NCBI GenBank assembly: GCA_963575745.1
Contig: CAUYUJ010000001.1
Span: 1,860,001 to 1,924,000 of the forward strand
DNA length: 64,000 nucleotides
Direction of reading: 5' to 3'
From: Prorocentrum cordatum
Lineage: Eukaryota
Shown here: in pieces, positions 7,602 to 30,552 of the stretch
Position numbering within the stretch: position 1 is the first letter of the stretch
Layout: each line of letters starts with the position of its first letter
The notes under the pieces: model-generated
The model's input: the letters and a program-made list of their open reading frames with translations, nothing else
Database searches by the model: none
What the model was told of the DNA's origin: nothing
Made by a program: the position numbers and the translations under genes

Positions 7602-8048
7602 GTCAGCGGACAAAAGCGCGCGCGAAATGAGGATATTTGCAGGGAGACTTTCGTCCAGGGGACAGGCGGAACAGTTCTGCGGCACGACCTTGTCGGGCAC
7701 ACGTAAGAGTGACCCTTCGCTAGAGTGCTGTTTTGCGCGACCCCAACGGGGCCCCCCGATCGCTGAATGCGGTTGGATATCAGCGGCTGGCGCGCCTGGG
7801 TTTGGCGCCCCGCGCCCCCCCGAAAGTCGCGCACCACAGGTCACTCCTGCCCAGGGTCGCTCTTGTGCATAGCCGACCTTGGATGCCCCCTGCAGACTTT
7901 TCAGCCGTCGTTGGGCCAAAGCTCTCATCCCTTCTCTCTCTCTCTCTCTCTTTCTCTTTTTCTCTCTCTCTCTCTCTCTCTTTATTTCTTTCTCTCTCTC
8001 TCTCTCTCTCGTGAGGGGCCTCATCTCGTGCGCGCTTTGAACGCCCAG

Positions 8049-8209
8049 GCCCTCCGCTGAACGTGCCGCTCGTCGGGACCGTCAGGACGTTTACAGACAA
8101 GGGCTTCGGCTTCATACTGCCTGACGACTTCCAGGTCGAGGTCTTCGTGCACCGTAACGACCTCGTCGGCGGAACCGCCCTGGGCCCCAACGACCGCGTT
8201 TCCTTCCAG
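8049..8209 (+). CDS. Exon: N-terminal part of cold-shock domain 2
   Basis: (G)PPLNVPLVGTVRTFTDKGFGFILPDDFQVEVFVHRNDLVGGTALGPNDRVSFQ; acceptor cccAG|GC is phase-compatible with the previous exon; donor CAG|gtaggt. Confidence 0.88.
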
Positions 8210-8436
8210 GTAGGTAAGGATGCAACTCCTGGGAGGTTACGTTGAGCTTCGGCGCTGGTGCATCCGTGGTCGAATGCCGTCCAAGTCTGGTATAATCCTT
8301 ACGAATTCCATTGGATCCTGCTCATTATGGTATGAGATGAGGTCTAATTTGGGCCAGTCCGGCTTAATGGCCCCTTCGTCGGGCTTCATGTCCCCGCATC
8401 TCTCTCATGCAAATCTCCCAGAAGTTGCCTCCTGAG

Positions 8437-8826: not shown

Positions 8827-8910
8827 GACTTCTCTCCCTCCTCCTCCTCCTCCTCCTTCTCCTCCTCCTCCTCCTCCTCCTCCTTCTTCCTCCTCCTCCT
8901 CCTCCTCCTC

Positions 8911-8961
8911 CCGTGGCCATTTTGGCTCAAGCCATTTTGGCTGAAGCCGTGTCGGCTCAGG
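8911..8961 (+). other. Tandem dinoflagellate spliced-leader relics (three copies, increasing decay)
   Basis: CCGTGGCCATTTTGGCTCAAG (20/21 to CCGTAGCCATTTTGGCTCAAG), then CCATTTTGGCTGAAG (14/15), then CCGTGTCGGCTCAGG (11/15). Confidence 0.9.
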
Positions 8962-11180
8962 GTGGTCTGCGCGAGCCGCGCCGCCTGGCGCCAGCCTCGA
9001 CCCGCTCCTCGGGCCCTCCTGCCCCCGCCCCGCCGCGGGCCGCCGCGCCCCGTCCTCTCCCCGCCCCGCTCTTCCGCCACGGCGGCCTTGGCGCGGGCGT
9101 CAGGTTCCGCGGCGGGTCTGCCGGCGCCCGCCGCGCCCCGCGTGCCCGAGGCCCCGGCGGGGGCAGGAGAGGCACCCCCGGACGGCGGCGCCCGCCAGGT
9201 ACAGAGGTCCGGCGCGTCTCGCGCTGGCGTCCCAGATAAGGCTTCGCCACAGGGCTGCACCACACACACCGCCGAGTTTGAGTTTTTGTTCAGGAGTCAG
9301 ATGATTGCTTTCGGTGCGGATGTCGATCGCATGCGATGTGTGTTCCCTAGGATCGCAGTTAGGCGGGAGGAGCGTTCCGCAGTGACCGAGCGTGCCCAGG
9401 ACTTGGCCATTCACCAGGTAATGATCCACACTGATGCTGAGCTCGCGGCCACGTTTGATGACGTCAAAACTCAATTGAATGACTTGAGGGCCGTGGTCTC
9501 GTCGGGTACTTCGGCTCGCGCCGACTCGGACTTCGAGATTGTGGGGGGGAGATGAGGAAGGTGGTCGCCGTAGGGTTCTGAGGACATCAGGCTCTGACCA
9601 AGCGAGCGCCACCTCGTCTCATCGTTCTTGGTTTGCCACTCGTCGAGGCCTTGTTGAAAGAAGCTTTCCAGCCCATCATCGCGCAGTGCAGTGCCTTGGT
9701 AGAAGTGCCGATCGGGCGCGCGTGCTCACTGACTAGGAAGGTGGTTCTCGACTTCCCGTGCACTCGCGTGTCCAGCGTTCTTCGGGAAGAGCCAGAGCAT
9801 TGGGGAGACTGTGCACCAGAATCCGATCGACGGTCTTGGTTGGGAGCTACGCGGGCGTCGGGACCTCCCCCCTGCCAGTCTGAAGTTCTTCTTTTATCTT
9901 GGTCAGATTCGTGCTATCGTCGGCAACGTGCTGGGTCATATTCAGGTCGGAAGCAACGGACTCGGCGGGCAGGTCTGTGGGTTCCTTATCCGCGTGCACC
10001 CTGTCGTGGTGGCGAAGGTCACGATTTCTGAGTCAGGTGTACGGTGTACCGGGTCTCCTGCTTGATCCTAACGGTGGTCCTAACGGTCTGAGTAGTGTTG
10101 GTAAAGAGGCTCATGCTGGTTGCGTCCAGGCACCTGTTGATCGAATTCGTCCCTTTGTGTGATGGGCCCAGCCAGTTGTCCAGGAGCATCCTTGCTCGAG
10201 ACCATTGGTGCTCTGGCTGGCATGTTTTTGCGCTCTCCTGGAGCCCCTGGTCTTCCGTCGGGTGGAGAGCCGTCTGGGGTTGGCCCTAAGACCTGCGCGG
10301 CCCTAGAACGCCGGAGAGGGGCTCAGCCAGCCAACCTGAGTTGATTGTAAACCTGAATTCGGAAGGTGGGTCACGCCTGGCGACCCTGCCTCTGGAGTGC
10401 ACGTAGCTTTCTCGCCTAAGTCTTCTCTTTCTGTTTGCACATGGAACAATCACGCCCTTTCTCGCCCCATGCGACTTTTTGCCACTTACGGGAGCGCGAC
10501 GCGCGCGGATGCTCCAACTTGTCGGCAGGTTTGATGCGGCGTGCTTACAGGAGACGCATGGCACGCGCGCAGATTGTGAAATGCTCTGCCAGGATGATCG
10601 CTGTCGGCACGCAGTTGTTCACGATTCCGCGATTGAGCCGAATGCAGATGGGAGTGTGGTAACCAAATTGTCCAGAAGACCGATGGCGCAGTTTGACTCG
10701 TGCAGCCCGCGCGCGGTCGTCCCTGGGCGGATCTTGGCTTCGCACATGAAGGGGCGGAAAGGTGACTCCATGATTCTGAATGTTTTACATGCCCGCTACC
10801 TCGGACCCCGCCGAGAAACATCGCAGGCACAAGGGGGGTTATTCAGGCCAACCCCCCCGCCAGCTGCCCATGCCGTGCGCGTGATTGCGGGAGATTGGAC
10901 ATTCGCGGGGGTAGAGGAGGGCAGATTTAGGACGGGCGGGACTTGATTGGCTGGGGGTCGGCAGCAGACGGATGCTTGTGAGTCGGAATATGGGTCCTGG
11001 GTTGAGTTGCACCAAAATGATCCCACGCGACAGGATGTCTTTGCGGGTCCTTCGCAGGGGGCGGCTCGTCTGGGTCGCATCTAAACGTCTCTCCCTGCTC
11101 CTGTGCTGAGTGACCTCCTGGTTACAGTCGATTGGACATGCAGTTGAGGCGCGGGCGCTGCTCTGGCCCCCGGTTTACAG
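8911..11180 (+). mobile_element. 5' part of a decayed LINE (SL relics, ORF1-like region, APE endonuclease); RT not present
   Basis: APE motifs in order across frameshifts: CTWNN (~10436), CLQETHG (~10545), VIAGDW (~10885), RLGRI* for RLDRIY (~11070); putative ORF1 remnant 8962-9555. Confidence 0.75.
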
Positions 11181-11750
11181 CAACAGCGGCTCCGCCTGAT
11201 ACTTCCATCTGTCGCTTGTGACTCCTCGCAATTTATTCAGGCGCCACGCCCTCGCCATTCAGGAATCGCGCCCTCGCCTGGGACTTCCTCATAAGTTACT
11301 TAGGAATCGCGCTCTCGCCAAGGATTTCCGGGCGAATTATGCAGGACTCACGAATTCGCGTAACATGCGAGTTTGTTCGATGGAAGTGCCCCTCCAGGTG
11401 CTCGCTGTGTTTTTACCGGGGAAGGTCTTCATTCTCAAACTGTGCCCCTGGCCCAACAGTTGACCCCGCCTGATACGATCTTATAATGTATTAAAGGATC
11501 GCGCTCTCGCTTGGGAGTTCCTTTCAACTTATCGAAGAATCGCGCTCTCGCCTGATACTTTCGCGCAATGTATTCAGGCGTCGCGATTTCGACACTCAAA
11601 AATCGCGCTGTCGCTTGGGACTTCCTCGCAATGGATTCAGGCGCCGCGCCCTCGACACTCAGGAATCACGTTCTCGCTGTCGATTTCCTCACGAGATTGA
11701 TTTTGGAATCGCGCTGTCGCTCAAGGCTTGTTCGCGATTCATGCAGGCGC
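11180..11750. repeat. Dispersed tandem-unit family with core aggaatcgcgctctcgc
   Basis: Repeated ~39-bp units; related blocks at 12325-12445, 13310-13500 and 27210-27380. Confidence 0.75.
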
Positions 11751-12449
11751 ACGCTTCAGCAACCCGCCCGCTCGACCTGGCCGGGCCCGCCTGTTATGGT
11801 CTACCCGCCCGATTTGCCCGCATGGTTATGCCATGTTTTTTTTCTGTTCTTAGCCCCCATCCAGCTATTCTCTTTCGTGCTCCATCCTCATCCATCCCCC
11901 TTGGCCCTTCTGTCCATCCGTCCTGTCTTCCCCTTTTTTCAGGTGCTGCACGACACACGTTGCAGGTAAGGAATGTGTACCCCCAATGGGATACGATCGA
12001 AAACGAGAAGGGTTGGTATCGAGGGTCTGGTTTTTACGTGTTGAGTGGCACGCGAGGAGATGAGAGCGAAGCATAGCTTAAATCAAAACATGTTGTTGTC
12101 GCCGTTGTTGTTATTGTAGTCGATGATGCTGATGTGTTTGTTGGTGTTGTTGTTGCTGTTGCTGTTGTTATTGAACTTTCTACATTGCAGAAGAAGTATT
12201 GTTGATCCCCCCTTCTGGTGACCATTGTGTTTTTCAATTGAAGTGTTTCCTCCGGGGCTCGCACCCTGTTTTCTATCAGGGAAAGTCACGGGGCTCAGAC
12301 TGCGTTGTTGGCCCCGGATTAGAACAACAACGGCTCCCGCCTAAAACATCCTCGCAATTTAGCCAGGACCCCCGCTCCCACCTGAGACTCCCTCACATTT
12401 TACTCAGGAATCGCGCTCTCGATTTGGATTCCTTACACTTCATTAAGGG

Positions 12450-13309
12450 AAGAGCGGGTTCTACCGCTGCTGGCGGAAAACCGGGGGGGTCACGGAGGGT
12501 TCCCAACCCGCCGCCCCCCCACTCTCGAAAACAGGGGGGGGGTCACTACCGGTTCGACAACCCCGCCCATCCCCCCCCCTGTTTTCGAAAGGTTCGAATT
12601 CCCCTCCCCCTCCCCCCTCGCCGCGGGCAACGATTCCCGCTTTGGGGGACAGTGGGACAGTGGTGGGGACATTGGGACAATGGTGGGGACGGTGGTGGTG
12701 GGGACACTGGTGTGGGGACAGTGTGACTGTGGTGGGGACAGTGGGACAATGGTGGGGGTGGTGGTGGTGGAGACACAGGTGAGGGCGGTGGTGGGGACGG
12801 TGATGGGATAATGGGGCAGTGGTACAGTAGGGAGAGTGATGGGGACAGTCGGGAGTGGGTCAGTGGCGGGGGCAGTGGGGACAGTTGGGGCAGCACAGTG
12901 GGACAGCGGGGGGGCAGTGGGGACAGTGGGACAGTGGCGGGGACAGTGGGGACAGTGGGGACTGTGGTGGGGACAGTGGGGACAATGGTGGGAACAGAGG
13001 GGACAGTGGTGGTGGGGACGGCGGTGCTGTGGGGACAGCGGGGGGGCGGTAGTGAGGACGGTGGTGGGGACCCGGGAGTCGTTTGCCGGCGATGAGTGGG
13101 TGGGGTCTTCGAACCAGTAGTGACCCTCCCCGGTTTTCCGGAGGGGAGGGGGGAGAGGTTAGGGGGGGGGCCGGGAGAAGGGAGGCGGGGGTTGTTCGAG
13201 CAGGGGGGGGAGGGATTTTCGGAGGGGGGGGGTGGACCGCCGGGTTCCGGATTCTGGATGAAGGGGGGGAAATTTTCCACAGTAGAGTTGCGGTGGATCA
13301 CGCCATTTC
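12450..13309. mobile_element. Non-autonomous TIR element with subterminal ggggggtcactaccggttcgaa repeats and an internal (ggggacagt)n minisatellite
   Basis: Left end gaagagcgggttctaccgctgctggcggaaaa is imperfectly inverted to the right end; subterminal motif is inverted at ~13109; flanks tcattaagg/ttatgaagg may be a degenerate 9-bp TSD; the same left end occurs at ~57332. Confidence 0.6.
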
Positions 13310-13502
13310 TTATGAAGGGATCGCTCTCTCGGCGTTCTGGAGCCGCCCTTTCGCTGGAGACGTGCTTGCAATGTATGAAACAATCGCGCTCTTGCGTTGG
13401 AGTTCCCCGCAATTTACTCAAGCGCCGCGCTCCCGACACTTAGGCACCCAGGAGTCGCGGTCAGGCCTAGGACTCCCTCAAAGCTTACTTAGGAATCGGG
13501 AT

Positions 13503-14250
13503 CTCGCTGCCCTTCGTGGCCCCGTTGCAGCCCTTCGTGGCCCCCTCGCTGCCCTTCGTGGCCCCGTTGCAGCCCTTCGTGGCCACCTCGCTGCCCTTCG
13601 TGGTCCCGTTGCAGCCCTTCGTGGCCACCTCGCTGCCCTTCGTGGCCCCGTTGCAGCCCTTTGTGGCCCCCTCGATGCCCTTTGTGGCTCTTTTGCAATC
13701 GTTCGTAGCCCCCTCGCTGCCCCTCGTGGCCCCGTTTCAGCCCTTCGTGGCCACCTCGCTGCCCTTCGTGGCCCCGTTGCAACCCTTCGTGGCCCCCTCG
13801 CTGCCCCTCGTGGCCCCGTTGCAGCCCTTCGAGGCCCCCTCGCTGCCCTTCGTGGTCCCGTTGCAACCCTTCGTGGCCCCCTCGCTGCCCTTCTTGGCAC
13901 CTTGCAGCCCTTCGTGACCCCCTCGCTGCCCTTCGTGGCCCCGTTGCTGCCCTCTGTGGCCCCGCCCTTGGCCCCTGCGGCCCAATATACGTATGCCTTT
14001 CGTGGTCCCCACTCGTTCGCGCCCGTCGTGGGCCCATATGCATGCCCTTCGTGACCCCGCTGTCGCCCTTTGTGGCCCCCTCGCTGCCCTACGTGGCCCC
14101 GTTGCTACCCTCACTGGCCCCGTCGTTGCCTTCTGTGGCCCCGAATTATCTGCCCTTCGTGGCCCCCGCTCGTTCGCGCCCTTCGTGGCTCCATACGCAT
14201 GCCGCTGTCGCCCTTCTTGGCCCTCTTCCTGCCCTTCGTGGCCCCGCTGT
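13503..14250. repeat. 21-bp minisatellite (gcccttcgtggccccgttgca / gcccttcgtggccccctcgct), 42-bp dimer
   Basis: Directly visible; gives AALRGPV repeats in spurious ORFs. Confidence 0.95.
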
Positions 14251-14414
14251 TGCTCTCGCTCTCGCTTTCGCTCGTCGTCGTCGTCGTGGTCGGTCCCTTG
14301 TCCGTCCTTCTTGGGGTCGAGTTGCCGCCGATCAGCGCTGCCGCTGGCCAGGCCGACGGTCCGCGGCCGCCCCGCCGCTTGCCGGGGCCCGGCCTGCATG
14401 GAAGAAAGATATAG

Positions 14415-15090
14415 ACACGGACACGGACACGGCGCCTACTCGCCCCACGGGACGACCCTACGAGGGGCTAGGCGGTTGCGCCTCGGCGCCAACAGGAATA
14501 TTCAGCCGGCCGATTCACTCGATCAGATGATCTTGACCATGCCCACGTACGTAGTGCAGACCATAGATTGCTGTCCGGCGGAATTGTTTGCCAAGTTTGT
14601 CTGCCACTTCTGAGAATAAAGCTTGCCACGTCGTCAGCTCATCGTTTGTAGGGTCGGTGTGGTAGTCTCTTTGCGCGTGGATGTGTCTCGGTTGGGTCCC
14701 GTAGCAAGGCCTACCTGCTCCATTTCCCCATGTTGTCGTTGAGGGATATTACAACAAGTCCCCATTGCAAACGTCTCTGCCGTGCGCACCAATCTTCGTA
14801 ACCCACTTGCCGGCAGTATTGCTCTATTTGTTTCATCGTGCGTTGAATCCGTTCTTGCCATGGCTCAATTGCAATAGAAGAAGGCCACGTGCCCGTTTTG
14901 GTGCTGCTGTCGGCGCTGGTGTCGGTATCGCTGCTGTCGGAGTAGCTGTCCCGAGTGGTGCCCTCTCTGTCGGAGCGGTGTCCAGGGCCCACTTCCCCTG
15001 CAGTATCTGAAAGAAAACGTCGCGGTGGTCCAATAATCATTCTAAGCGTACGGCGCTGGGTGGACCGCACCCGTGCTTCCAATGCTCAGG
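14415..15090 (-). mobile_element. 5'-truncated 3' fragment of an RTE-like LINE ORF2 with a short tandem tail
   Basis: QRRTLRMIIG...EPWQERIQR...EDWCARQRRLQW...GKWSR*ALLRDP...HRPYKR*ADDV resembles the RTE C-terminal R.GRP..RW.D motif, with stops; ends in (gtgtcc)n. Confidence 0.65.
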
Positions 15091-17483
15091 AGGAAAAGAA
15101 ACACACAGACACAATTAATCCTCGATTCCCAAGGAACTATGGGAGAATATGGGAAGTGGGGGGGAAGACAGAAACCCAGAAAATATAGGAAAATATGGGG
15201 AATCGTTTTATTTGTGTGTATTTATTTGTGTGTCCTGGGGCCCCTTCCAATGCAACTGTCATCGTCCACGAGCCAGCTCCATACACTAGCGCACGGGTAC
15301 CAGTGCCAGTGAACAGCCGAAGGCGGCCATGCAAGGAATACGACCGTGCAGTAAGCTTTTGCTGCGCGCCGCCGATGGCGGCGGCGCGCTGGGGCCAGCC
15401 CCCTCCAGTGTGTCTCCGCTCGGCGCGGCGGCGCGGAGGCCCAGGGCCAGAAAGACAGTATTCTTCCTCCTCCTCCTCCTCCTTCGCCTCCTCCTCCTCC
15501 TCCTCCTCCACCTCCTCCTCCCTCCTCCTCCTCCTCCTCCTCCTCCTCCTCCTTCTCCTCCTGCCTTTCCTCCTCCTCCCCCTCCTCCCCCTCCTCCCGC
15601 TCCTCCTCCTCCTCCCCCTCTCCCGCGAGGGGCTGGAGCGACCACGCGCAGAGGGCAGATGGCCCTTTTGCATTCTTCCCTTACCATGATTGCTGTTTTC
15701 TTTGCCCCCTGGAGTGTCGAGGCTCATTCCGTCAGCTAGGGTTGAGCTCAATGAGACTTTCAAGACGGCGGCACTATGCTCAGGATCTGGAGCCGATTCG
15801 ACACTATGGTGAAGGATTCGAGCCATCACGCCACCCACCCCCCTCCCAGACATGGTCGTGCGAGGTTTTTGGACGTTTTCAGTTTCTGGGGGCCCTCGCC
15901 AGGCCCCAGGACCGTCAAGAAACCAATCGCGATGAGAAACCGGCCGTGGAAGAGGGTCGGGACGTAAGGGGCCCCGTACTGAAAAACTCGAGACGTTTGG
16001 GGGTGGCCAAGGGGGGGCAATGACCGGGGAGGGTGGATCTCATTGCCCGGAGCATGATATCTCCTCGGATCTCATGGCCCCCTTGTCTCATTTCAGCAAG
16101 TGCCCTGGTCACCCCTTCGTCCGCGCACATGCCTCGGACCATGATGCGCCAACCCCCTCTTGGACGCCTCCCTGACGGACGCCCCCGAGACATCGCATGC
16201 CTGGAGGAGGAGGAGGAGGAGGAGCAGGAGGAGGAGAAGGAGGAGGAGAAGGAGGAAGAGGGAGGAGGAGGAAGAAGAGGGAGGTGAAAGAGGAGGAGGA
16301 TGAGGAGGAGGGAGGAGGGATGAGGGAGGAGGAGGGAGGTGGGAGGAGGGAGGAGGAGGAGGGAGGAGGGAGGAGGGAGGAGGGAGGAGGACGCGTGGAT
16401 TAGCGCCGGGTCCCGCTTCCATGTCCCGCTCCTTTCGGCCGGCACTCGTCCATCCATCCTCCTCCTCCTCCTCCTCCTCCTCCTCCTCCTCCTCCTCCTC
16501 CTCCTCCTCCTCCACCTCCTCCTCCTCCTCCTCCTCCTCCTCCCTCCTCCTCCTCCTCCTCCTCCTCCTCCTCCTCCTCCTCCTCCTCCTCCTCCTCCTC
16601 CTCCTCCTCCTCCTCCCCCTCCTCCTCTTCCTCCGTGCCAGAGCGTGTGTGCCGATCTCTGAGCTCCTACCACCACCTCCCTCGACCGGGGGGAGGGGGA
16701 GGGGGGGGAGGGGGAGGAGGACGAGCAGGCGGGCAATCGGGTCGAACGCCAAGGGGGGGATCGATGGTTGATAGATTCGGACACTGTCGTCGGTTCTCGG
16801 ATGTTCTCTAGCCTCGGGGTGTTCTCCAGCAGCTGCGCCTCGCTGAGAGCGTTCTCGGGGCGCCCAGTCGTCCCGAACGGCCGCCCAAGATCCGAGCAAT
16901 TGTCCAGAAGCCAGACGACGGAGGTTCCTCGGGGCGGACGAAAGGCGGTGATGCATCGACCCCCAATCGCTCCCCAAGAGATCCCCAATCGCCCATTGAT
17001 GGGACCCCCCAAGGGGGTGCCCCTCGAGCGGGGTCTCTCGGGGAAGGGGGGGGTGCGAGTGCAGCTGGTTTGGGCCACGCCGCCGGGCGCTGTCTTCGAT
17101 ACGCGGCCGCCTCCTGCGCCAGCAGGCGCCCGGCTTAGAAACCAGGCGCATGAGCCGATTCGCTGAGAGCCCCCATTTCAGAATCCCCCCTTGTCGTCCG
17201 ACCCGAGAGAGGGGTGGGAGGCGATGGTGTGTAGAAGTAAGCTGTCTGTCGGTGTAGCAGTGATCTGTCTGTCAGTTCTGGGGCCATCCCCTGACATTCG
17301 CCGGTCTGTTTTTTTTTCAATGCGCGGCTCCAGAGGTCCTGGGCCTGCTCTTCGCCCCAGGTCCACTTGTGATGCTCCGGGGGCCCCGGCAACGGGCCCC
17401 AGGGGCCGAACTCGAGGAAACAGCACCCTGGATTGACGAAACCATCTCGTCGGAGATGCGGGTCTCTCTGCCGTCCCCACGAG

Positions 17484-19520: not shown

Positions 19521-20230
19521 AGAAAGGGGGGGGCGGGGCTCAGGGGTCGGGCGCGCGGAGGGCCGTGCCACCCAGGGCGTCGGGAGGGGTTGCCTCGCCC
19601 AGAATGTCTGGGGCCCTTCTTGCGGTGCCATGGCATCGCTGTGCTGCATTTTCAAGGGCGCCCTCGAGGGCGCGAAGTTATTCGCGCTTCGCGGTCCTCG
19701 CTCCTCCTCCCCCTCCTCCTCGTCCTCCTCTTCTCCCTTTGGGGGGGCGGCGCGAGGGCGCGAAGTTATTCGCGCTTCGCGCTTCGCGGAGCGCGAAGCG
19801 CGAAGTTGGGAGCCCTTGCTTCTTGCAGTGCCATGGCATCGCTGTGCTGCATTTTGTTCGCAGCGAGGGCCATCGAGGAGCAGATTGGTTCATCTTGCGG
19901 GGAGCAAGCGCACGAAGTCGAAACATGCACGGGGAGTGGACGTCCGAGCGTTGGCGAGGTGCAGTGTCGCAGAAGGGAGCGCCCGAAGCGGGCTGCTCCC
20001 GGTGTGATTTGGTTCTGCAGCCCAGGCACCAGAACTAGGACCCTTGCGGGTTCAGCGATGGCTCCTGGTTTCCGGGCCGGTAGGGGGAGGAGGATGAAGA
20101 GCAGGAGGGGGGCGGGAGGCGGAGGAGGAGGAGGCGGAGGAGGATGCGGAGGAGGAGGAGAGGAGGAGGAGGAGGAGGAGGAGGAGGAGGAGGAGGAGGA
20201 GGAGGAGGAGGGGGGGGGAGGATAGGAGGA

Positions 20231-20248
20231 TAGCCATTTTGGCTCAAG
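20231..20248 (+). other. Spliced-leader relic at the LINE 5' end
   Basis: TAGCCATTTTGGCTCAAG equals the 3' 18 nt of the dinoflagellate SL exactly; it directly follows a (GGA)n tract. Confidence 0.92.
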
Positions 20249-20322
20249 GTGTCAAGAGTGACAAGATGTGACACACATCTTCTGCTCCAGAGAGCAGGTC
20301 CGATACCGTAGCGGCGGCAGTA

Positions 20323-21357
20323 TTGGCTTCTCTTCAGTGCCCTTCTCACCATACCGTTTGCAACGGGGTGGCCGAAATTGCTGCGACGTGCAACGTATGC
20401 GAGAGCAGCATCAGTGCAGGAAGTATTTTTGGAGTTTGCGGAGATGATCTATGCGGATGGCTCATTTGCGTGAACTGCGGATCGAGCACAACAACACGTG
20501 GCTAAGAAACGTCAGGCGGGCTGTGGGGTCCACGTCACCCATTCTCCAGGACATGGTACGTCTTCGAAAGTTGTAGTTCCTGCTCAACTTCCAGGATATC
20601 TTCGTATCCCACAGCTTGCGCAACCCTGCACGCCCATCGACCAGAACACCTTGGATGGTATTTTGGAGCGACTTGCAGAGAAGCAAACAGAGAAGTTTTA
20701 AATAATGATTGCAGAGGTTTGTGAGAAAAGATCTCCCGGGCTTTGAGCCCAACGCAGAAACGCATCGGGGATTTAGAGAAGAAGTTCGCAGACTCCCGCC
20801 GGGCCCATTCACAGCCCCCCGAGCGCTCCAAAGTTTTTTCGCCCACCTGCGTCGACATCAAGAGGTGGTGCGAGTGGGAGGATTGCCGGGAGAAGGGCAT
20901 CGGGAAGTCGACCGCAGAGCAGCGCTACGCAGATCTGATCCAGCAGGTCTCTGAGAGCACCCGGGGCCAGATCGGTTTTATTCAGCTACGTGGTCTCCGG
21001 AACTATTCAGTACGGGTGCCCATTGGTGGAGAGTTCGCTTCCGAAGCGCATGGTACCTGGAAGGATTTCTTCGAGACGGGGAAGTGGGACATGGACGGCA
21101 GGCGCCCGTGCAGCACCCTTGAGCGGCGTCCAGAAATCAACAGGATGTACCAGACCATGGGACATTTGGAGCGCACCAGCCAGGGCTTCACCACCAGAGC
21201 GCTCCCGGCACCTAATTTCTCCGTTTACGTAAACAAGGAAGGACAGCAGGCGACCTGCATCGGCCACGCCACGGAGGACAATGAGATCACTTGGGGCGAG
21301 CCTTGCATGACCGGACAGGACGCAACCGAGGCGGTGAGGGCCGCTCGCCGTCGCTGA
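20323..21357 (+). pseudogene. LINE ORF1 remnant with N-terminal zinc-finger-like motif
   Basis: CPSHH...CNVC...C.DDLCGWLICVNC at 20323-20505, then frameshifted segments 20498-20701 and 20743-21357, all upstream of the APE domain. Confidence 0.6.
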
Positions 21358-21873
21358 GGGCGCCCGGAGAGATTGCATGCAAAGGGCCTGCATTTGGAGA
21401 TTGTTTTGAGTTGGACTTCTTGCCGTAAGCCTATGAGGATTTTTGGTAAATTTACTCGTGCTATCATTGACGATGGCTTGGGCGGGTCAGTTCTGATGCT
21501 CCAGGAGGTCGGGACGTGGAACGGGGGCGCGTGTTCTGACGGCTGCGTCTTGCACACTCGGGGGCCAAGCGGAAACAGCAATGGGAGTGATTGTGGGTTT
21601 TTGTTGCCCCTGTAAATTTCTCAGCTGGTACCCGATGAGTCTCACGGGGAGTATTGAAGTGGCCTGGTCGCGGACTCAACCATCTTATTTAGCGCGCGCA
21701 TGCTTGACCACACCGATCCCGAAGGGCGAGCGGCCACAGTCATAGCAGAGTCCTTACAATTCATCAACAAGCATCGGAATTCACAGTGCATTGACTCCGT
21801 TGTTGTTGGTTTCGACAGCAACGTCACGCTACCCGCCAATATACAGGACGTCACAGGCAACAACGCATTAGTA

Positions 21874-23393
21874 TTGAGCCCGCCGCTTGTGCTACCAGCG
21901 GCGGGGTTCGCCTCTTCCCTTCCCCTAATTTCCCTTTTAATGTTTCCCGATACTTGTCTTCTAATTGTATTATTGTTCCTCTAATTGTCTTGTATTCCCG
22001 ATAATTGTCTTGTATTTCCGATCATCGGCCATATGGTATACACCATACAAGCGACACAAACGCATGGTATCAAGGAGGAAGGAGGAATGAGGAGGCCTCA
22101 GACCCTCCCTCACCAGTAACATGCCCACCCTCTTCCCTGCCCCCTCCTCGCCCTCCCCCTTCCTTCCTCATCGTCCTCTTCACTGCTACTCTACTCGAGA
22201 TGGCTAGGCGGCGGACGTCCCGACACCTCGGGGAGCCTCCCTGCAGGCCTCTGGAGGCCTTCGAGAGGCGCTTCTCCTCCCCCTGCTGGTCTTCGTGCCG
22301 CTCCCTTTTTCCCACCTTTCCTCCTTTTTCCTCCTTGGCATTGCTCGGGCGTGCGCGTTTTTTCCCTCTGCGAGGACCATCGAGGAGCATCCTGGACCAC
22401 GTAGCAAACCAAACACGCGCGAAACCGACACATGCACGGGGAATGGACGTCCGAGCGATAGCAAGCCTCCTGCCCGCGCTGGGCGATAGCAAGCCTCCTG
22501 CCGCGAGGACTGGGCACGGGAATTACCGTCCAGGCACTATAGGGAGAAAGTCCCCGGGAGGTCCCGGGAGGTGGGGCCCCGGGAGGTGGGGGCCTTCCCG
22601 CTAATTCGTCCCTGTGTTTTTACAGGGTTTCATTCTCGGGAAATTATCGGGAAGGGTCCCCGGGAGGTGGGGCCCCGGGAGGTGCCCGGGAGGTCCGTTC
22701 ATTCTGGACGGTTCTCCCCGAACCCCTGGACGGTAATCCCCAGCACTGAAAATCATGCGGGGCGAGGGGTTGGGGAGCTCGGGTTGCTCTCTTGCACTTG
22801 CGCCTCGCCGAGAGCCTTCCAGCTCCTCCTCCTCCTCCTCCTCCTCCTCCTCCTCCTCCTCCTCCTCCTCCTCCTCCTCCTCCTCCTCCTCCTCCTCCCT
22901 CTCGGTGACGTGGTGACGGCCCTCCCTCCTCTCCTCACCCTCCTGCTGCCCCTGTCCCTCCCCCTCTTGCTGCTCCCCTCCTGCTGCTCCCCTCATTGTT
23001 CGGTTCCTTTTCCCCACTTGTTCCCTCCGTCGCTTCCTGGTCGTCGTCCCCTCTCGTCGTCTTCCCCTCACCTGCATCCTTCCTCCGCGTCTCGCTCTTT
23101 CGGCTCGTTCGATGTGTCGTGCCATCACACCGTCACCATAACATCATAGTGTACATTTTATGATCATATCATGTTCTACGTGCAATATTGTAGGCCAACC
23201 ATGTAAGACCGAGTATGGCTGACGCCCATAAGCATTCATTGGAACAGGGGAATTAACGGGAACGGTTAGAGGGGAACCCGGGGAACTAGCGGGAACCAGG
23301 GGGATTAGCGGGAATTATGTTCCAGGAAATTGTTGGGATTATCGACAAGAGGAATAGGCGGAACAGCTCTGGTAGCACAAGCGGCGGGCCCAT
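21874..23393. mobile_element. 1520-bp non-autonomous DNA transposon with 8-bp TSD, inserted in the LINE APE domain
   Basis: TSD CATTAGTA at 21866-21873 and 23394-23401; TIR gcccgccgcttgtgctaccag / ctggtagcacaagcggcgggc is perfect; removal rejoins the APE coding sequence. Confidence 0.92.
22522..22737. mobile_element. Small nested MITE (possible TA target duplication)
   Basis: attaccgtccagg (22522-22534) is the reverse complement of cctggacggtaat (22725-22737); internal cccgggaggt repeats. Confidence 0.65.
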
Positions 23394-23566
23394 CATTAGT
23401 ACCTCTTCAAAGACACGATGGACATGTCGAGGGCCATCTTGGGATGGTTGATTTTTCTTGGAGTTCAATATCTTAACACCTTCGGACTTCCAGTACTTCG
23501 CGAATATTTGTGGGCGTGCGGCTACAAACGTCCACTTGAGAAAATATCACAAATCGATTCCATGGA

Positions 23567-25400
23567 GTGTCTTCGAACGTGCACGGAACAGCACAGCCTA
23601 TGATTTTGGATGCGGCTATTGTCCAGGACAGGGTCGATCACCGCCCCATTTGTGCGCATTCGGCATGGGCTCAGCCTCATTGGGTACCGCCGCACCGGAA
23701 GGATACTCTGACTGGGTGGGTTCGGGCTTCCGAGATGGACGCCCAGGCGTTTCGGATTGCATGCTCAACGTCTTCGCCGCGAACTGCTACTCTTGGAAAC
23801 CTCGAAGCAGTTGACAAGGCTGCCGCTAAGGCCGTCCCCCACGCGACATCCAAGCGAATCCGGTTGGGGGCCGACGGCGCCAAACATGCCGTCCAATTGG
23901 CCAGGCAGGTTGCGCTGGCCGCTGGAAACAACTGCTCTCGTCGTTACACCTCGCGGCGGCGTGCGATACGGGCCTTGGCGACACTGCGGGCCCAAAAGCG
24001 ACTCGGACAAGTGCGGCCTGACCGTGTAGCCCATGGATATGTGCCACAAATCATGGAAGTGGGAGGCCGTCTATCCAGCGATCGCCGGCAATGGCTGGCG
24101 CAGGGACATCAATTCGTCAGCGCACGTTTCAAAGATGTCGCAAACAATGCGAACCGACAACACCACCCGCCTGAAGCTCAGATCTCTGCACGCAAAGATC
24201 TAGCCATCGACAAATTAGAATCTAACGTTCTTCATTTCTGGGACTTCCTGCAATCGCGGGGAATGTCACGTCAGGGGAAAGCGGCGGGGCCCGACGGAGT
24301 ACTTGCCGAAGCTTGGAAAAAAAACATGCCGTTCGATGTATTGGCAGTGGCGTGGAAGACATTCCAGGATCGCGCTTTCTTCCGCACGGGTACGGGGTCC
24401 GAGTGCTGGAAGTTGTTGGACATGCGCGGCGTACCGAAAAGCTGTAATTATAGTAACGACGTTCGAACACTTCCGGTGGATAGCTAAAAGTTCAGTGTTG
24501 CAGAAATGGAATATGCTGACTTCGCGACCTCGGCTGAGAAGCCAATTGCGCATCGCCGGTGTGCACGCGTACGGTTGCAAGAGGAAGTTGCGCACCGGGG
24601 ACATCATCTGCGTGATGCGAGAGTTGTTGTTTCTCTGGGATGCGTGGGTTTCCCATGCATATCGCTGCTCGGGACGCGCGATGCACATTCGACAACATGA
24701 GCCGCGAGAGCATTGCTGAGCCTCTTATTCAAATCGGGGCCTCCAGCGGCACTGCTGCGGCGATCCTTCAGGAACTGGCAGGCAGGCGCGGCAAGTTTGC
24801 CATTCCAGGGGCTGGTGACACTGAGCATTTTGATTTCTGCAAAGGCGGAAAGCAGGGAGGTGTAGAAACACCCGACATTTGCAACGCAATGGTGGAGTGT
24901 TGCTTACAGGATTTGGCGGCGGCTTGGAACTTGCGCGGTTTGGGGCCCCACTGGGGGGCGCATGGGTGAACCGCGCAATTTGGGCAGACAGTGCGTTCTT
25001 GTTCGCGACAGGCCCCGCGGACCTGCAAAGTATGATCCACGAGCTGACCAGTGCGATCTCTACGATTCCTTTGCAATGGGAGCCGATCTCTTTGCAGTGC
25101 ATGGCGCGCGGGGCGGCTGCGGAGGTGCGCATCTCCCTGACAACTTCGACAGTGCCGGAAAGCAGCCTGGAGTATACGCAGCTGGAGAACATGGAGCGCT
25201 TGGGAGTGCTGTCGGACGCTTCGGGGGCGACCGCGCGCAGCGTTGAACGCCGGATGGGCCTTGGTGACCGGGGGTTCTACAAGCGTCGCTCTCTTCTGCA
25301 AGGGCGAGGCGGTGTCCCAGCTCGTCTCGCGGCATGGGCATCTGCGCCCCAGTCTACAGCTTCTTTCCGGAGCGAGTCGCGGCAGCTCACATAGGGCATC
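23567..25400 (+). pseudogene. Reverse transcriptase region of the LINE at 20231-26560 (frameshifted)
   Basis: Non-LTR RT motifs in the expected order across ORFs 23567-24487, 24303-24719, 24640-24969 and 24879-25394. Confidence 0.85.
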
Positions 25401-25979
25401 CTGGAGAAGTTGAAGACGCGGGAACTGTTCAATTTGCGGCGCAAGTTCAAATTTCGCCCGCGCCCAGAGGAGCAACGGGGAGAGTTTATGATCCGTTCAG
25501 CTGGACAAATCCCCCGATGGTTCAAGTTGACAGGTATACCCATGCTGCACCACCGGGTCGTTGCCATGGCGTGCATGAGCGTTTGGCGAGAAGTCGATTT
25601 TCAATTGCCCAATGGTCACGCGCCTCCTCGCTGGGTTCGGGAACACTGGAGCGCTCTTGAGTGGCAGTTTATGGAAGCCTTTGGAGATCGCGCCCGACGG
25701 CGAGAAGGGCTTCGACAATCTTGGGAAGACGTCTTTGTGGGACTATTGGGCGCTGACTGGAGGAGCCGCGGAGCAGCCTACAGAGACATGCCGGCCTGGA
25801 AGAGACACAGACCTCAGTTCGTCAACGCCGCGTGCCGCAAATGGCCCCTCCCGCCCCTGCAGGAGCCGGACGAGCGAGTCCCGCTCAGGTTGGTGGATCA
25901 TCTTCCACAACGTCTTGAAAGTCGGGGGAATCTGGCGCCAATGGCGCACCACCCACACGACAACCAGTGGGGTGAAAGC

Positions 25980-26484
25980 AGCCGGTGCTTAAGTGCAGCG
26001 GTCGATTGCAGACTGTTGGCCGACCTCTTGAACGGCGCGACCGTCGCAGCTACAGAGGAGCACCGACCGTCGTTCATTCGAATGGCCCGTGGCTTGGAGC
26101 AGATGTTGGCGAGAGGATGGACTAGCAGAGTACCTTGGACAGACATGATAGAATGGAGACCTCGTGCATTCAACGCTGAAGCGGACCATTTGGCCAAATA
26201 CTTCGCAATCCTGGAGGCATGTCGACATCGTCGAAGCCAGAGAGCATGCGATGAGAGGTCGTAATTTACGCATTTATAGCGATGGTGGCTACCGTGCAGC
26301 GGAGGACCGGGCATCTGCAGCATGGGTGTTATATGCCATTCGGCGTCAAATGGGCTCGTGGGTGTATACCATGGTAGGTCACGCAAGCATCAGTATATAC
26401 GGGGCGACCACAGCTTTCATTGCTGAGCGCATTGCCTTGGAGTCAGCAGTGGACGCGCTTGTCGATGTTGTTTCAGATTTATAG
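25980..26484 (+). pseudogene. RNase H-like domain with circularly permuted motif order
   Basis: VDCRLLADLLNG and EWRPRAFNAEADHLAK (C-terminal half) precede LRIYSDGGYR..ASAAWVLY and TTAFIAERIALESAV (N-terminal half); one frameshift near 26200; stop at 26482-26484. Confidence 0.78.
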
Positions 26485-28059
26485 TATCTCTCCGGGCCGA
26501 TTGTGATGAACTTGAGGAGGCGCGCCATGGAGTCAAGCCTTGCGGACGGAAGGAAGGAAGAGGAAGAGGAGGTGGAGGAGGATGGGGAGGAGGTGGAGGA
26601 GGTGGAGGTGGAGGAGGAGGAGGAGGAGCAGGACGCTGCCCCGACCTTCGTCGGACGCTGGAACCAGGACCACTGCGGGTTCCGTGACGGTTCCTGGCTT
26701 CCGGGCCGCTGCTCCGACCTCGGTCGGGGAACCCCTCTGTGGCCGAGGCCCGCCGCGTCCCGCAGTGCCCAGGCGTTCCCTGTTTCGGCGCCCTTCACGG
26801 CAGCACGATGACTGTACTCGTAGGATGTGCACGGCTGCGTCTGGTATTTCACTTGGCATAGGTTGTGCGTCTGGTGCTGACGACGGCCGGTGCTGACAAC
26901 TGCCGCGAGAGGTCACTCATCGTGGGGAGTTTTTCGGGTGTGTATTGTTGGTAAATCGCGATGATTGTGCTCGTGGTGAGGGGGTCTGTTCCCGCCAATC
27001 GGTTTTACGCCGGGCGCGCGCGGTAGTTTCATTCGTCGAGCTCTTTCTCTCTCTCTCTCTCTTTCTCTTTCTCTTTCTTAGCGCATGATTAGTGTTTGTC
27101 CTTCCCGTCCGGCGCACAATGTTTTTCCAATGGAACTGCTCTCCCCGTGGCTCGCACTTGTTGGTTTCTGAATTTTCAGCGAAGGCTACGATGTTCGCCC
27201 CTGGATTGCCACAGCAGCGGCCCTACCTGATACTTCATCGCCGTATAAGAAGAAATCGCGTTTTCGCTTGAGACTTCGTGGCGGTTTTCTCGGGACTCGC
27301 GCTCTCTCAGGACCGTGCTCTCGCACGAGACGTTTTCAGAGTTTACTCTGGAATCGTGCTCTCGCCAGAGGATTCCCCATCGTTTGCGAAGTTCGCCTCG
27401 ATGCCCCGCCCGCCCGACCCGCCCGTCAGGGTCCGCCCGCCCGCCCGACCCGCCTGGTAGGGGGTCCGCCCGCCCGACCTGCTCGTCGGGGTTCGCGCGC
27501 CCCGCCCGCGAGGTGGTGAGGTCCGCCCCTTCGCTTGCCCGGAAGCTTGCGCGCTCGCTTTCGTGCCCCGCCCGGCGGACCCGCCCGTCAGGGTCCGCCC
27601 GCCTGACTCGCCCTGTGGGTCCGCCCGTCCGACCCGCAACTTGGGGTCCTCCTGTTAAACCAAGTGTCTCGTCCTCAATAATCATATATCCCTCTTGCCC
27701 CCTTCCCTTCTCGTGCCCTCCTCCCTTCCTATTTCTTGTTTTTTTTCTTTCTTTTTCTCTCTCTCTCTCTCTCTCTCTTTTCCACTCTCCTAATTCAGGG
27801 GCCGTTCCAACTACACGTGGCAGGGAAAGAAAGCATACACCCCGAATGGGGTACCATCGAAGACGACGAGGGCGGGTAGCGAGGATTTGGGGTACACATG
27901 TTGGGTGATTCGCAAGTAACGAAGAACGAACAGTCGTATCTTGATTGTCGTTTTTTTAAAGCTGGGGCAGGGGGCGTGTGTATCACTGTGCTCTGGTTCG
28001 CTCTGCTGGCAGGAGGAGGTTCGGATGAGAAATGCAGGGATCGCCATGGTGTTTGCGAG

Positions 28060-29382: not shown

Positions 29383-30545
29383 ACTTTGGCACACCCCTCA
29401 CACGTTTCGTGGCCCCATAGGGAGCTCCACCTAAGGTCCCAGTGGCGCAGTTCGCATGGCGGCGCCGCCCCTTTTTGGCGCACCCCTCACACGCTTCGTG
29501 GCCCCATAGGGAGCTCCACTTAAGGTCCCAGCGGCGCAGTTCGCATGGCGGCGCCGTCCCACTTTGGCGCACCCCTCACACGCTTTGTGGCCCCATATGG
29601 GGGCTCCATCTAAGGTCCCAGCGGCGCAGTTCGCATGGCGGCGCCGCCCCTTTTTGGCGCACCCCTCACACGCTTCGTGGCCCCATAGGGAGCTCCACTT
29701 AAGGTCCCAGTGGTGCAGTTCGTATGGCGGCGCCGTCCCACTTTGGCGCACCCCTCACACGCTTTGTGGCCCCATATGGGGGCTCCATCTAAGGTCCCAG
29801 CGGCGCAGTTCGCATGGCGGCGCCGCCCTGTTTGGCGCACACACACACACACACACACCTCACACGTGTCGTGGCCCCATAAGGAGCTCCACCTACGGTT
29901 CAAGCGGTGCAGTTCGCATAGCGGCGCCGCCCCATTTTGGCAAACCCTTCACACGTTTCGTGTCAGAAGCCGGGCAAGGGCTGCTAAATCCGTGGCTGCT
30001 AAAATCGACCTCCGGGAAGTTGTCTTCGTCCTTCCGGGAAGAAGCCCGTTGACAGTTTCGCGTGCCGTGCCTCATTCCGGGAAGTTGTTTTTTCCTTCCG
30101 GGAGGGCCGTTTTAGCAGCCGCGGTTTTAGCAGCCCTCGCCCAGCTTCCGATCGTGGCCCCATAGGGGGCTGCATCTAAGGTTCCAGTGGCGCGGTTGGC
30201 ATGGCGGCGCCGCCCCGTTTTGGCACACCCCTCGCACGTTTCGTTGCCCCTATCGGGAGCTCCTCCTAAGGGCCCCATGGCGCAGTTCGCATGGCGGCGC
30301 CGCCCCATTGTGGCACACCCCTCACACGCTTCGTGGCCCCATAGGGAGTCCCACCTAAGGTCCCAGTGGCGAACTGCGCATGGCGGCGCCGCCCCATGTT
30401 GCAAACCCCTCACACGTTTTCGGGGGCCCACAGGGAGCTCCACCTAATGGCCCCATGGCGCACTTCGCATGGCGACGCCGCCCCATTTTGGCACACCACT
30501 CACACGTTTCGTGGCCCCATAGAGAGTCCCACCTAAGGTCCCACT
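29383..30545. repeat. 89-90 bp tandem satellite with a local 179-bp dimeric higher-order unit
   Basis: Unit starts (tttggc) at 29385, 29474, 29563, 29653, 29742 and 29831; alternate units share diagnostic variants. Confidence 0.95.
29963..30151. mobile_element. 189-bp MITE with ~43-bp TIRs and 5-bp TSD, inserted in the satellite
   Basis: TSD TCGTG at 29958-29962 and 30152-30156; tcagaagccgggcaagggctgctaaa / tttagcagccctcgcccagcttccga; removal restores the satellite unit. Confidence 0.9.
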
Positions 30546-30552
30546 GTTTGCC

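What the first reader, a model, noticed from the sequence alone, without database searches (positions are those of the whole stretch)
20231..26560. Second SL-headed LINE in a host intron: possible promoter-less, trans-splicing-dependent retrotransposon life cycle
Seen: this element starts exactly with TAGCCATTTTGGCTCAAG and keeps the internal AG; I see no nucleotide similarity to the 8911 element. Both SL-headed LINEs lie in sense orientation inside introns of the CSD-RRM gene. Inference: such LINEs may need no internal promoter or ribozyme. Read-through host transcription plus SL trans-splicing at the self-carried AG would regenerate a capped full-length 5' end each cycle. This differs from SL-gene-targeting elements (SLACS/CRE, NeSL), which use restriction-like endonucleases; these are APE-type and are flanked by microsatellite, not SL gene arrays.
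Basis: partly seen in the sequence, partly recalled or inferred. Interest (0 to 1): 0.85.

Follow-up and report, generated by a model that had tools for sequence, protein, structure and literature searches.

The report
Dinoflagellate LINE copy headed by spliced leader
A dead jumping gene in a dinoflagellate genome begins with the short leader that this group of algae splices onto its messenger RNAs, and related copies elsewhere begin the same way, so these elements seem to copy themselves from ordinary leader-capped messages.

Summary
The sequence facts hold. [quoted passage not shown] It sits at the 5' edge of a roughly 6.3 kb non-LTR retrotransposon on the + strand. The layout is ORF1-like region, APE-like nuclease, reverse transcriptase, C-terminal domain, a short 3' UTR and a purine-rich tail. 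(AGG)n lies on both sides. The copy is dead: at least 4 frame changes, 3 in-frame stops and a 1.6 kb interruption.

Pfam missed the element. A full HMMER search found 152 relatives, and many of the longer ones carry RVT_1.

I fetched 15 related metagenome loci. Five reach upstream of ORF2 and represent four independent loci. Two of those four start with an exact DinoSL on the sense strand, one of them as a full 22-nt SL followed by a relict cut at the AG. A third starts with a partial SL.

SL heads are therefore recurrent in this LINE group. They are the LINE version of the known dinoflagellate "mRNA recycling" described since 2008.

Not shown: intron location, dependence on host read-through, and lack of a promoter. 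RNA evidence could not be obtained. The 8911 element has no homology to this family.

Verdict: a real feature and a new variant of a known kind, of moderate interest.

The parts
20033..20080 (+). Upstream copy (X) of a ~49-bp direct repeat that brackets the whole insertion. It may be a long, decayed target-site duplication.
   Evidence: Alignment. The 35-bp core 20045-20079 has exactly one other copy in the window, at 26674-26708, and 0 are expected by chance. I counted about 82% identity over 49 bp from the alignment.
20082..20230 (+). (AGG)n microsatellite directly abutting the 5' end of the element
   Evidence: TRF: period 3, 51 copies.
20231..20248 (+). Relict DinoSL, positions 5-22 of the 22-nt leader. 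It contains both AG dinucleotides (SL positions 6-7 and 21-22).
   Evidence: DinoSL sequence taken from PMC7245778.
20249..20874 (+). 5' leader of unknown origin, with a Cys-rich ORF fragment at 20272-20505. No homologue was found.
   Evidence: Translations. No Pfam hit. No match in the 15 loci.
20875..21310 (+). ORF1-like region, homologous to the stretch between the SL and ORF2 in locus L002
   Evidence: tblastn: 26% identity over 116 aa at E 1e-6, plus a second piece of 56 aa at E 0.056, matching L002 1003-1451.
21475..21921 (+). N-terminal half of the APE-like endonuclease of ORF2, with in-frame stops at 21613 and 21655
   Evidence: tblastn: P0060 q32-180 at E 8e-8 and P0042 q34-163 at E 4e-6. 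Stops. The P0060 N-terminus aligns to the Exo_endo_phos region of P0148.
21922..23557 (.). Interruption of about 1.6 kb inside the endonuclease. It includes (CTC)n at 22823-22898 and a 96-bp stretch that is 74% identical to 19863-19958. Its origin is unexplained.
   Evidence: Only 75 aa of P0060 (q181-255) are unaccounted for across 1636 bp. TRF. blastn.
23558..26484 (+). Rest of ORF2: linker, reverse transcriptase (GPDGV at 24287, KGGKQGG at 24841, motif C WADS at 24981) and the C-terminal domain (N..AD.LA at 26172, DGG at 26275). The stop codon TAG is at 26482. The reading path changes frame 0>1>2>1>2 and has an in-frame stop at 25392.
26485..26554 (+). 3' UTR. Its last ~50 nt are conserved with locus L007 (CATGG.GTCAAGCCTT.GCG), followed by a purine-rich GGAAG-type tail.
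   Evidence: Alignment A4. Sequence.
26555..26633 (+). (AGG)n-type microsatellite at the 3' side, continuous with the element's purine-rich tail
   Evidence: TRF.
26660..26710 (+). Downstream copy (X') of the bracketing direct repeat

Best explanation
The feature is a dead, essentially full-length copy of an APE-type non-LTR retrotransposon (LINE) in a dinoflagellate genome. Its first 18 bases are a DNA copy of the dinoflagellate spliced leader. The most likely cause is that the RNA reverse-transcribed into this site was a mature LINE mRNA that had received DinoSL by trans-splicing. Reverse transcription then ran to within 4 nt of the capped end.

This is the LINE's own version of the known dinoflagellate 'mRNA recycling'. 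Related LINEs in other dinoflagellate contigs also begin with DinoSL, so SL trans-splicing appears to be the regular way in which this LINE group defines and caps the 5' end of its transposition template.

Shown: the SL relict, the LINE anatomy, recurrence in relatives, and the microsatellite flanks.
Inferred: that the template was trans-spliced mRNA, and that integration was by target-primed reverse transcription into or next to a microsatellite.
For: 1. The SL relict is exact and is not a chance match.
2. It lies at the boundary between the flanking (AGG)n and the element.
3. The stretch between the SL and ORF2 is LINE sequence. The ORF1-like region is homologous to the same interval of L002.
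4. ORF2 is colinear with 1263-aa relatives up to their C-termini, and the 3' UTR end is conserved with L007.
5. I scanned the 15 related loci (58,254 bp in total, both strands) for the exact 15-mer. There are 4 hits, all on the sense strand and all 5' of the LINE ORFs, in L002 (two in tandem), L011 and L013. There are no antisense hits.
6. Only 5 of the 15 loci reach 700 bp or more upstream of the extrapolated ORF2 start: L002, L006, L011, L013 and L015. Three of them have the exact SL. L006 has ATATTGGCTCAAG, a 12 of 13 match, at the edge of a (TA)n tract. L015 has none.
7. L011, L013 and L010 are one locus at 99% identity. L006 is a diverged relative whose 5' region is 72% identical to L011 and which has different flanks. 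That gives three independent SL-headed insertions besides this one.
8. The mechanism is the one published for dinoflagellate genes (PMC3229502; PMC5585692). [quoted passage not shown]
Against: - I obtained no RNA evidence.
- The sample of relatives with an intact 5' side is small, four independent loci, and one of them lacks an SL.
- 626 nt between the SL and the ORF1-like region have no homologue. A chimaera of SL plus a host exon plus the LINE is therefore not excluded.
- The bases after the SL are GT, as at the start of SL-gene introns. They do not match the one SL intron start printed in PMC12584245.
Confidence: 0.82

Rival explanations
1. Self-renewing, promoter-less cycle. A copy inserted in sense orientation in any transcribed region is carved out of the read-through pre-mRNA by SL trans-splicing at an AG carried in its own relict SL. 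Every such copy can therefore become a new source without a promoter of its own.
For: - L002 has a full 22-nt SL followed by a relict that begins exactly after AG at positions 6-7.
- The 8911 element has one near-full SL plus two relicts that decay towards the 3' side.
- This pattern is the published signature of repeated splice-and-retropose cycles (PMC3229502).
- Rfam found no known 5' ribozyme at E<=1 in 20000-20600.
- CSD exons upstream lie on the same strand.
Against: - Three of the five SL-headed elements examined (this one, L011, L006) carry a single SL. Splicing at the internal AG each cycle should pile up relicts, unless the terminal AG (CAAG|) is used instead.
- Tandem SLs can be donated in one step by tandem-SL genes (PMC6616646).
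- The SL relict has itself been proposed to act as a promoter motif (PMC5585692 and PMC6050394).
- The intron position and host read-through are unverified.
- The upstream (AGG)n is a poor polypyrimidine tract. That point is my inference.
Confidence: 0.35
2. Master-copy model. A few source genes have their own transcription and an ordinary trans-splice acceptor, and they produce SL-capped LINE mRNA. Daughters such as this one inherit one SL as a passive scar and are dead on arrival. The relict plays no part in later cycles.
For: - A single SL in this element, L011 and L006.
- This copy is heavily decayed.
- LINEs of this group of algae are described as old remnants, with Kimura distance 15-40 (PMC8045281).
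Against: L002 and the 8911 element show that copies already carrying an SL were transcribed, spliced and copied again, unless tandem-SL donors explain them.
Confidence: 0.4
3. Template-switch chimaera. At the end of reverse transcription the enzyme jumped from the LINE RNA onto an SL RNA, fusing SL sequence to the 5' end without any trans-splicing of the LINE RNA.
For: - The two bases after the SL here are GT, as at SL-gene intron starts (PMC6616646).
- Template jumping by LINE enzymes is known. That point is recalled, not tested.
Against: - In L002, L011 and L006 the SL exon end is followed by AC, AT and GC and by unrelated sequences.
- The L002 relict is cut at the splice-acceptor AG.
- No match to the printed SL intron start lies near the element.
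Confidence: 0.05
4. Site-specific insertion into an SL RNA gene or array, as in SLACS, CRE or NeSL.
For: Only the presence of SL sequence at one end.
Against: - The SL is complete to its 3' end on the 5' side of the element, lacks its first 4 nt, and is preceded by (AGG)n.
- The 3' flank is (AGG)n plus a copy of the upstream flank, not SL or intron sequence.
- The nuclease is APE-like.
- Rfam finds no SL or 5S gene in the window.
Confidence: 0.02

Closest known systems
[quoted passage not shown] 2011, PMC3229502; Song et al. 2017, PMC5585692)
   Same: A genomic copy of the 22-nt leader sits at the 5' end of a retroposed unit in sense orientation. Where tandem relicts occur (L002, the 8911 element) they are cut after the AG at SL positions 6-7. 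The mechanism is the same: reverse transcription of trans-spliced RNA.
   Different: Here the retroposed unit is the retrotransposon itself (ORF1-like region, APE, RT) rather than a host gene. The SL head recurs across diverged members of one LINE group. In the passages I read, the papers treat LINEs only as the presumed enzyme source. The nearest statement is the enrichment of 'RNA-dependent DNA replication' in both bouts of retroposition inferred from SL-relict retrogenes.
SL-gene-specific non-LTR elements (SLACS, CZAR, CRE, NeSL). Names and properties are recalled, not from a call.
   Same: A LINE physically joined to spliced-leader sequence.
   Different: Those elements insert into SL RNA genes and use a restriction-like endonuclease. 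This one has an APE-like nuclease, microsatellite and unique flanks, and carries the spliced (exon-only) leader as its own 5' end.
LINEs that cut their 5' end out of co-transcripts with an HDV-like ribozyme (L1Tc Pr77/L1TcRz: PMC3185411 and PMC3383444, abstracts in search listing; R2 recalled)
   Same: They solve the same problem, which is obtaining a defined full-length 5' end from a longer or foreign transcript.
   Different: Here the processing would be done by host SL trans-splicing, which also supplies the cap. No Rfam ribozyme was found at the 5' end. L1Tc has an internal promoter and gives unspliced transcripts (PMC1874656, title and abstract).
Microsatellite-associated LINEs (Dong, Kibi, Koshi, Waldo, Mino). 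Recalled, not from a call.
   Same: The same simple repeat lies on both sides of the insertion: (AGG)n here and (TA)n in L006. Other members abut (CA)n or (ATG)n.
   Different: There is no single target repeat for the family. The element's own tail is a short purine-rich GAAAG-type run, not the flanking repeat.

Membership tests
DinoSL-relict retrocopy (dinoflagellate mRNA recycling) | DNA-encoded DinoSL or a 3' part of it at the 5' end of the unit, on the sense strand | tested here: met
   18 of 22 nt are exact at 20231-20248. The same holds in L002, L011 and L013.
DinoSL-relict retrocopy (dinoflagellate mRNA recycling) | Older relicts are truncated after the AG (SL position 7) and lie directly downstream of a newer SL | tested here: inconclusive
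   This does not apply to this element, which has a single SL. It is met in relative L002 (22-nt SL plus CCATTTTGGCTCAAG) and in the 8911 element.
DinoSL-relict retrocopy (dinoflagellate mRNA recycling) | Transcripts of the copy carry a fresh SL joined to the relict | not testable with these tools
   No run holds the stretch.
APE-type non-LTR retrotransposon (LINE) | Reverse transcriptase domain of the non-LTR type | tested here: met
   There is no direct Pfam hit on the decayed pieces. ORF 24834-25394 has 152 relatives. Of 18 scanned, 12 have RVT_1. The nearest solved structures are R2 proteins, E 9e-5.
APE-type non-LTR retrotransposon (LINE) | N-terminal apurinic-like (Exo_endo_phos) endonuclease | tested here: inconclusive
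   21475-21921 aligns to the N-termini of P0060 and P0042. Pfam Exo_endo_phos is weak in relatives: P0148 scores 23.6 bits against a cut-off of 24.5 (E 5e-5), and P0060 has E 0.028. The LQEV motif is present.
APE-type non-LTR retrotransposon (LINE) | 3' tail and target-site duplication | tested here: inconclusive
   The purine-rich tail and the conserved 3' end are seen. A ~49-bp direct repeat brackets the element and its (AGG)n tracts, but its geometry is unusual for a target-site duplication.
SL-gene-specific LINEs (SLACS/CRE/NeSL) | Insertion inside an SL RNA gene, with the rest of the gene on the other flank | tested here: not met
   The flanks are (AGG)n and a duplicated unique stretch. 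There is no SL, 5S or SL-intron match nearby.
Ribozyme-processed LINEs (R2, L1Tc type) | HDV-like ribozyme at the 5' end | tested here: not met
   Rfam cmscan of 20000-20600 at E<=1 gave 0 matches. This covers only ribozymes catalogued in Rfam.

The most novel reading that the evidence does not exclude
A whole group of dinoflagellate LINEs has given up an internal promoter and any 5' ribozyme, and uses the host's SL trans-splicing as its 5'-end maker. The retained SL relict supplies the acceptor AG for the next round. Splicing at CAAG| would replace the old SL exactly. Splicing at the internal AG would leave a tandem relict. Any sense-strand insertion into a transcribed unit could then become a new source. 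This would be a third general solution to the LINE 5'-end problem, alongside internal promoters and HDV-like ribozymes. It would also tie LINE activity directly to the flood of SL-tagged retrogenes in these genomes.
Probability: 0.3. Interest if true: 0.7.

Novelty: new variant of a known kind. Interest (0 to 1): 0.5.

Why it matters
LINEs everywhere must recreate a complete 5' end each generation. The known answers are internal promoters and self-cleaving ribozymes. In dinoflagellates promoters are poorly defined and nuclear mRNAs are SL-capped, so LINEs that ride on trans-splicing would be a simple third answer.

It would also identify LINE transcripts as normal substrates of the same recycling pathway that produced thousands of SL-tagged retrogenes. 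The presumed engine of retroposition would then be linked to its products.

Practically, the SL head gives an exact marker for the 5' end of full-length LINE copies in these genomes, which are hard to annotate. The number of tandem relicts gives a possible count of retrotransposition generations.

Tried and rejected
- **Pfam on the element's ORF pieces.** 17 pieces at E<=0.01 and 11 pieces at E<=5 gave nothing meaningful.
- **Word-indexed protein searches.** Searches with 23540-24487 and 25395-26264 ('longer') found nothing.
- **Whole genome.** None is held, so no genome-wide census was possible.
- **Sequencing runs.** 22 runs were listed, all with word shares of 0.11 or less and none a real holder.
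- **Host gene.**
  - Pfam on 95 of 102 + strand ORFs of 140 aa or more (I left out 7 ORFs overlapping the element; 6 had been scanned, and 22005-22601 inside the interruption only in its 199-aa form 22005-22604) found no gene domains of note.
  - Pfam on 70 of 95 + strand ORFs of 60 aa or more around the elements (25 had already been scanned) found only the two CSD exons.
  - Pfam on 114 minus-strand ORFs found nothing at E<=1e-4.
  - Motif regexes found RNP2-like strings at 8741 and 17972 only.
  - The CSD exon found no longer homologues.
- **The first 15-sequence alignment** was too diverse for the search for related loci. A 6-sequence alignment worked.
- **Comparison of the 8911 element with this one.** No DNA or protein similarity, and no hit by any of the 150 relatives.
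- **Rfam.** No hits over the window or at the 5' end.
- **Earlier findings of this scan.** Nothing relevant.
- **Literature.** Searches for an explicit description of SL-headed LINEs found none in the library. Supplements of the retrogene papers were not opened and could list RT-bearing SL-relict genes.
- **The ~90-bp satellite at 29.4-30.5 kb** shares only CC.TTTGGC with the SL and is not SL-related.
Full report
**What is in the sequence**

Window 20231-20248 reads TAGCCATTTTGGCTCAAG. The dinoflagellate spliced leader is DCCGTAGCCATTTTGGCTCAAG (PMC7245778, passages), so these bases are positions 5-22 of it. The window is therefore dinoflagellate nuclear DNA.

The 15-mer CCATTTTGGCTCAAG, allowing up to 2 mismatches, occurs three times in 64 kb, always on the + strand: at 8917, 8932 and 20234. 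None of 100 dinucleotide-preserving shuffles reached three (mean 0.21). Upstream lies (AGG)n at 20082-20230. Downstream of the element lies (AGG)n-type repeat at 26555-26633.

**Is it a LINE?**

Pfam saw nothing in 17 ORF pieces of the element, and nothing meaningful at E<=5. Two word-indexed protein searches were also empty.

A full HMMER scan of 1.84 billion representatives with the 186-aa piece 24834-25394 gave 152 relatives at E<=1e-3. Of these, 21 were at E<=1e-10 and the best was 5.8e-23. I scanned 18 of them with Pfam. Twelve carry RVT_1. One (P0148) also has Exo_endo_phos at 23.6 bits, just under the 24.5 cut-off.

I ran all 150 listed relatives against the window with tblastn. They hit only 21000-26500 on the + strand. 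The hits are colinear with full-length proteins:

| P0060 residues | Window coordinates |
|---|---|
| 32-180 | 21493-21921 |
| 256-632 | 23558-24634 |
| 625-725 | 24643-24945 |
| 731-1151 | 24957-26201 |

The C-termini of P0004 and P0023 align to 26257-26475. The stop codon is at 26482.

The reading path changes frame at least four times between 23558 and 26475. It has in-frame stops at 21613, 21655 and 25392. About 1.6 kb (21922-23557) interrupts the endonuclease, and that stretch includes (CTC)n. The copy is dead.

**Is the SL at the element's true 5' end?**

- Between the SL and ORF2, 20875-21310 is homologous at the protein level to the same interval of the related locus L002 (26% over 116 aa at E 1e-6, plus a second piece). 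The SL therefore precedes an ORF1-like gene of the LINE rather than unrelated host sequence.
- The 626 nt directly after the SL have no homologue. An SL-host-exon-LINE chimaera cannot be fully excluded.
- The last ~50 nt before the purine-rich tail are conserved with locus L007, which fixes the 3' end near 26550.
- A 35-49 bp stretch occurs exactly twice in the window, once just upstream of the 5' (AGG)n (20045-20079) and once just downstream of the 3' (AGG)n (26674-26708). It may be a long, decayed target-site duplication. In that case the 5' (AGG)n would be part of the inserted DNA. Alternatively the element landed inside a microsatellite that already lay between two repeat copies. I cannot decide between these.

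**Relatives**

An alignment of six relatives retrieved 15 loci from metagenome contigs. The loci total 58,254 bp. I scanned all of them on both strands for the SL 15-mer.

- There were four exact hits, all on the sense strand and all upstream of the LINE ORFs. There were no exact antisense hits.
- Only five loci extend 700 bp or more upstream of the extrapolated ORF2 start: L002, L006, L011, L013 and L015. The other ten are cut by contig ends.
- L002 has a complete 22-nt leader (ACCGTAGCCATTTTGGCTCAAG) followed at once by a relict CCATTTTGGCTCAAG, then 50 nt and an ATG.
- L011 and L013 have AGCCATTTTGGCTCAAG directly after (CA)n. They and L010 are one locus at 99% identity.
- L006 has ATATTGGCTCAAG at the edge of a (TA)n tract and (TA)n again at its 3' contig end. 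Its 5' region is 72% identical to L011 over 399 bp. It is therefore a separate insertion of a related element with the SL-like head at the corresponding place.
- L015, a weak fragment, has none.

Counting independent insertions with a visible 5' side, two have an exact SL head, one has a partial SL head and one has none, besides the window's own copy. The loci differ in base composition from the window, to judge by eye. The feature is therefore probably shared across species, but I did not measure this.

**Mechanism**

The published model for dinoflagellate genes has four steps:
1. A mature, SL-bearing mRNA is reverse-transcribed and integrated.
2. When the new copy is expressed, a new SL is spliced at the AG inside the old one.
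3. That splice truncates the old SL after nucleotide 7.
4. Repeated cycles stack up relicts (PMC3229502, passages; PMC6050394).

The element here fits the first step, and L002 and the 8911 element fit the later ones. Song et al. found 'RNA-dependent DNA replication' enriched in both bouts of retroposition they inferred from DinoSL-relict retrogenes (PMC5585692, passages). RT-bearing units with SL relicts have therefore probably been counted before without comment.

My five literature searches and the passages I read from twelve papers contain no explicit statement that full-length LINEs begin with DinoSL. I did not open supplementary tables.

**What remains open**

I could not test them.

- Only two CSD exons on the + strand (7259-7627, 8015-8242) have Pfam support.
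- RNP2-like strings at 8741 and 17972 have no Pfam support.
- No exon was found beyond 26560.
- The last homologue search was empty.

Three observations weigh against a simple 'splice at the internal AG every cycle' model:
- Three of the five SL-headed elements seen have a single SL.
- Tandem-SL donor genes exist that could add two units at once (PMC6616646, passages).
- The SL relict has been proposed to act as a promoter motif.

A variant in which the terminal AG (CAAG|) is the acceptor would replace the old SL exactly and keep one copy. This is my inference and is untested. A master-copy model, in which daughters are passive and dead on arrival, fits the single-SL cases equally well.

**Rivals rejected**

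- Insertion into an SL gene is contradicted by the flanks and by the APE-like nuclease.
- A known 5' ribozyme is absent at Rfam E<=1.
- A template switch onto SL RNA is unlikely. In the relatives the SL exon is followed by unrelated bases, and the L002 relict is cut at the acceptor AG.

**Verdict**

It is best filed as the LINE form of dinoflagellate mRNA recycling, which makes it a new variant of a known kind. It also supports a testable hypothesis that trans-splicing serves as this LINE group's 5'-end strategy.

Noticed in passing
window 24981-24992; alignment A2; proteins P0001-P0150: The family's reverse-transcriptase motif C reads W-A-D-N rather than the usual Y/F-x-D-D. In the 15-sequence alignment, 13 of 15 have xxDN. 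A rough regex located a motif in 112 of the 150 relatives, and 96 of those 112 have xxDN against 4 with WADD. The window copy has WADS. The motif is conserved at about 25% overall identity, which suggests it is functional. I know of no description of this, and that statement is from recall only.
   Followed up: partly
window 8837-8961 and 8911-15465: The 8911 element starts with a near-full SL (CCGTgGCCATTTTGGCTCAAG), followed by two relicts that decay towards the 3' side (1 and 4 mismatches). All of this comes directly after (CCT)n. It has no DNA or protein similarity to this LINE family. Only an LQET-like string near 10560 hints at a nuclease. Much of it is minisatellite.
   Followed up: partly
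window 21922-23557: A 1.6 kb interruption inside the endonuclease of the LINE. It contains (CTC)n at 22823-22898, short 15-bp repeats, and a 96-bp stretch (22370-22465) that is 74% identical to 19863-19958 just upstream of the element. Its origin is unknown.
   Followed up: no
window 20045-20079 and 26674-26708: A direct repeat brackets the element together with both (AGG)n tracts. It could be a ~49-bp or longer target-site duplication, or a pre-existing local repeat.
   Followed up: partly
L001 ~3330, L002 ~5270, L007 ~3600, L009 ~2030; window 26540-26560: Family members end in a short purine-rich run (A-rich plus GAAAG). This is followed by a different simple or tandem repeat in each locus: (ATG)n in L009, ~50-bp minisatellites in L001 and L007, and (TA)n in L006. 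Insertions of this family seem to sit in or seed simple repeats.
   Followed up: partly
protein P0002: The second-best relative of the RT piece (48% identity, 287 aa) is named by its source as coming from a prasinophyte green-alga transcriptome. Either the family is wider than dinoflagellates or that data set is contaminated.
   Followed up: no
L002 9559-10533: A second ORF on the same strand, about 4 kb downstream of the SL-headed LINE, has a weak RNase H match (E 8e-4). It is not hit by this family's proteins and may belong to another retroelement.
   Followed up: no
window 29400-30550: A tandem satellite of about 90 bp. Its unit shares only CC.TTTGGC with the SL and is not an SL gene.
   Followed up: partly
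window 7259-7627 and 8015-8242: Two cold-shock-domain exons lie on the + strand (Pfam CSD, E 2e-8 and 7e-11). The second ends at a GT donor. A word-indexed search with the second exon found no longer homologue.
   Followed up: partly
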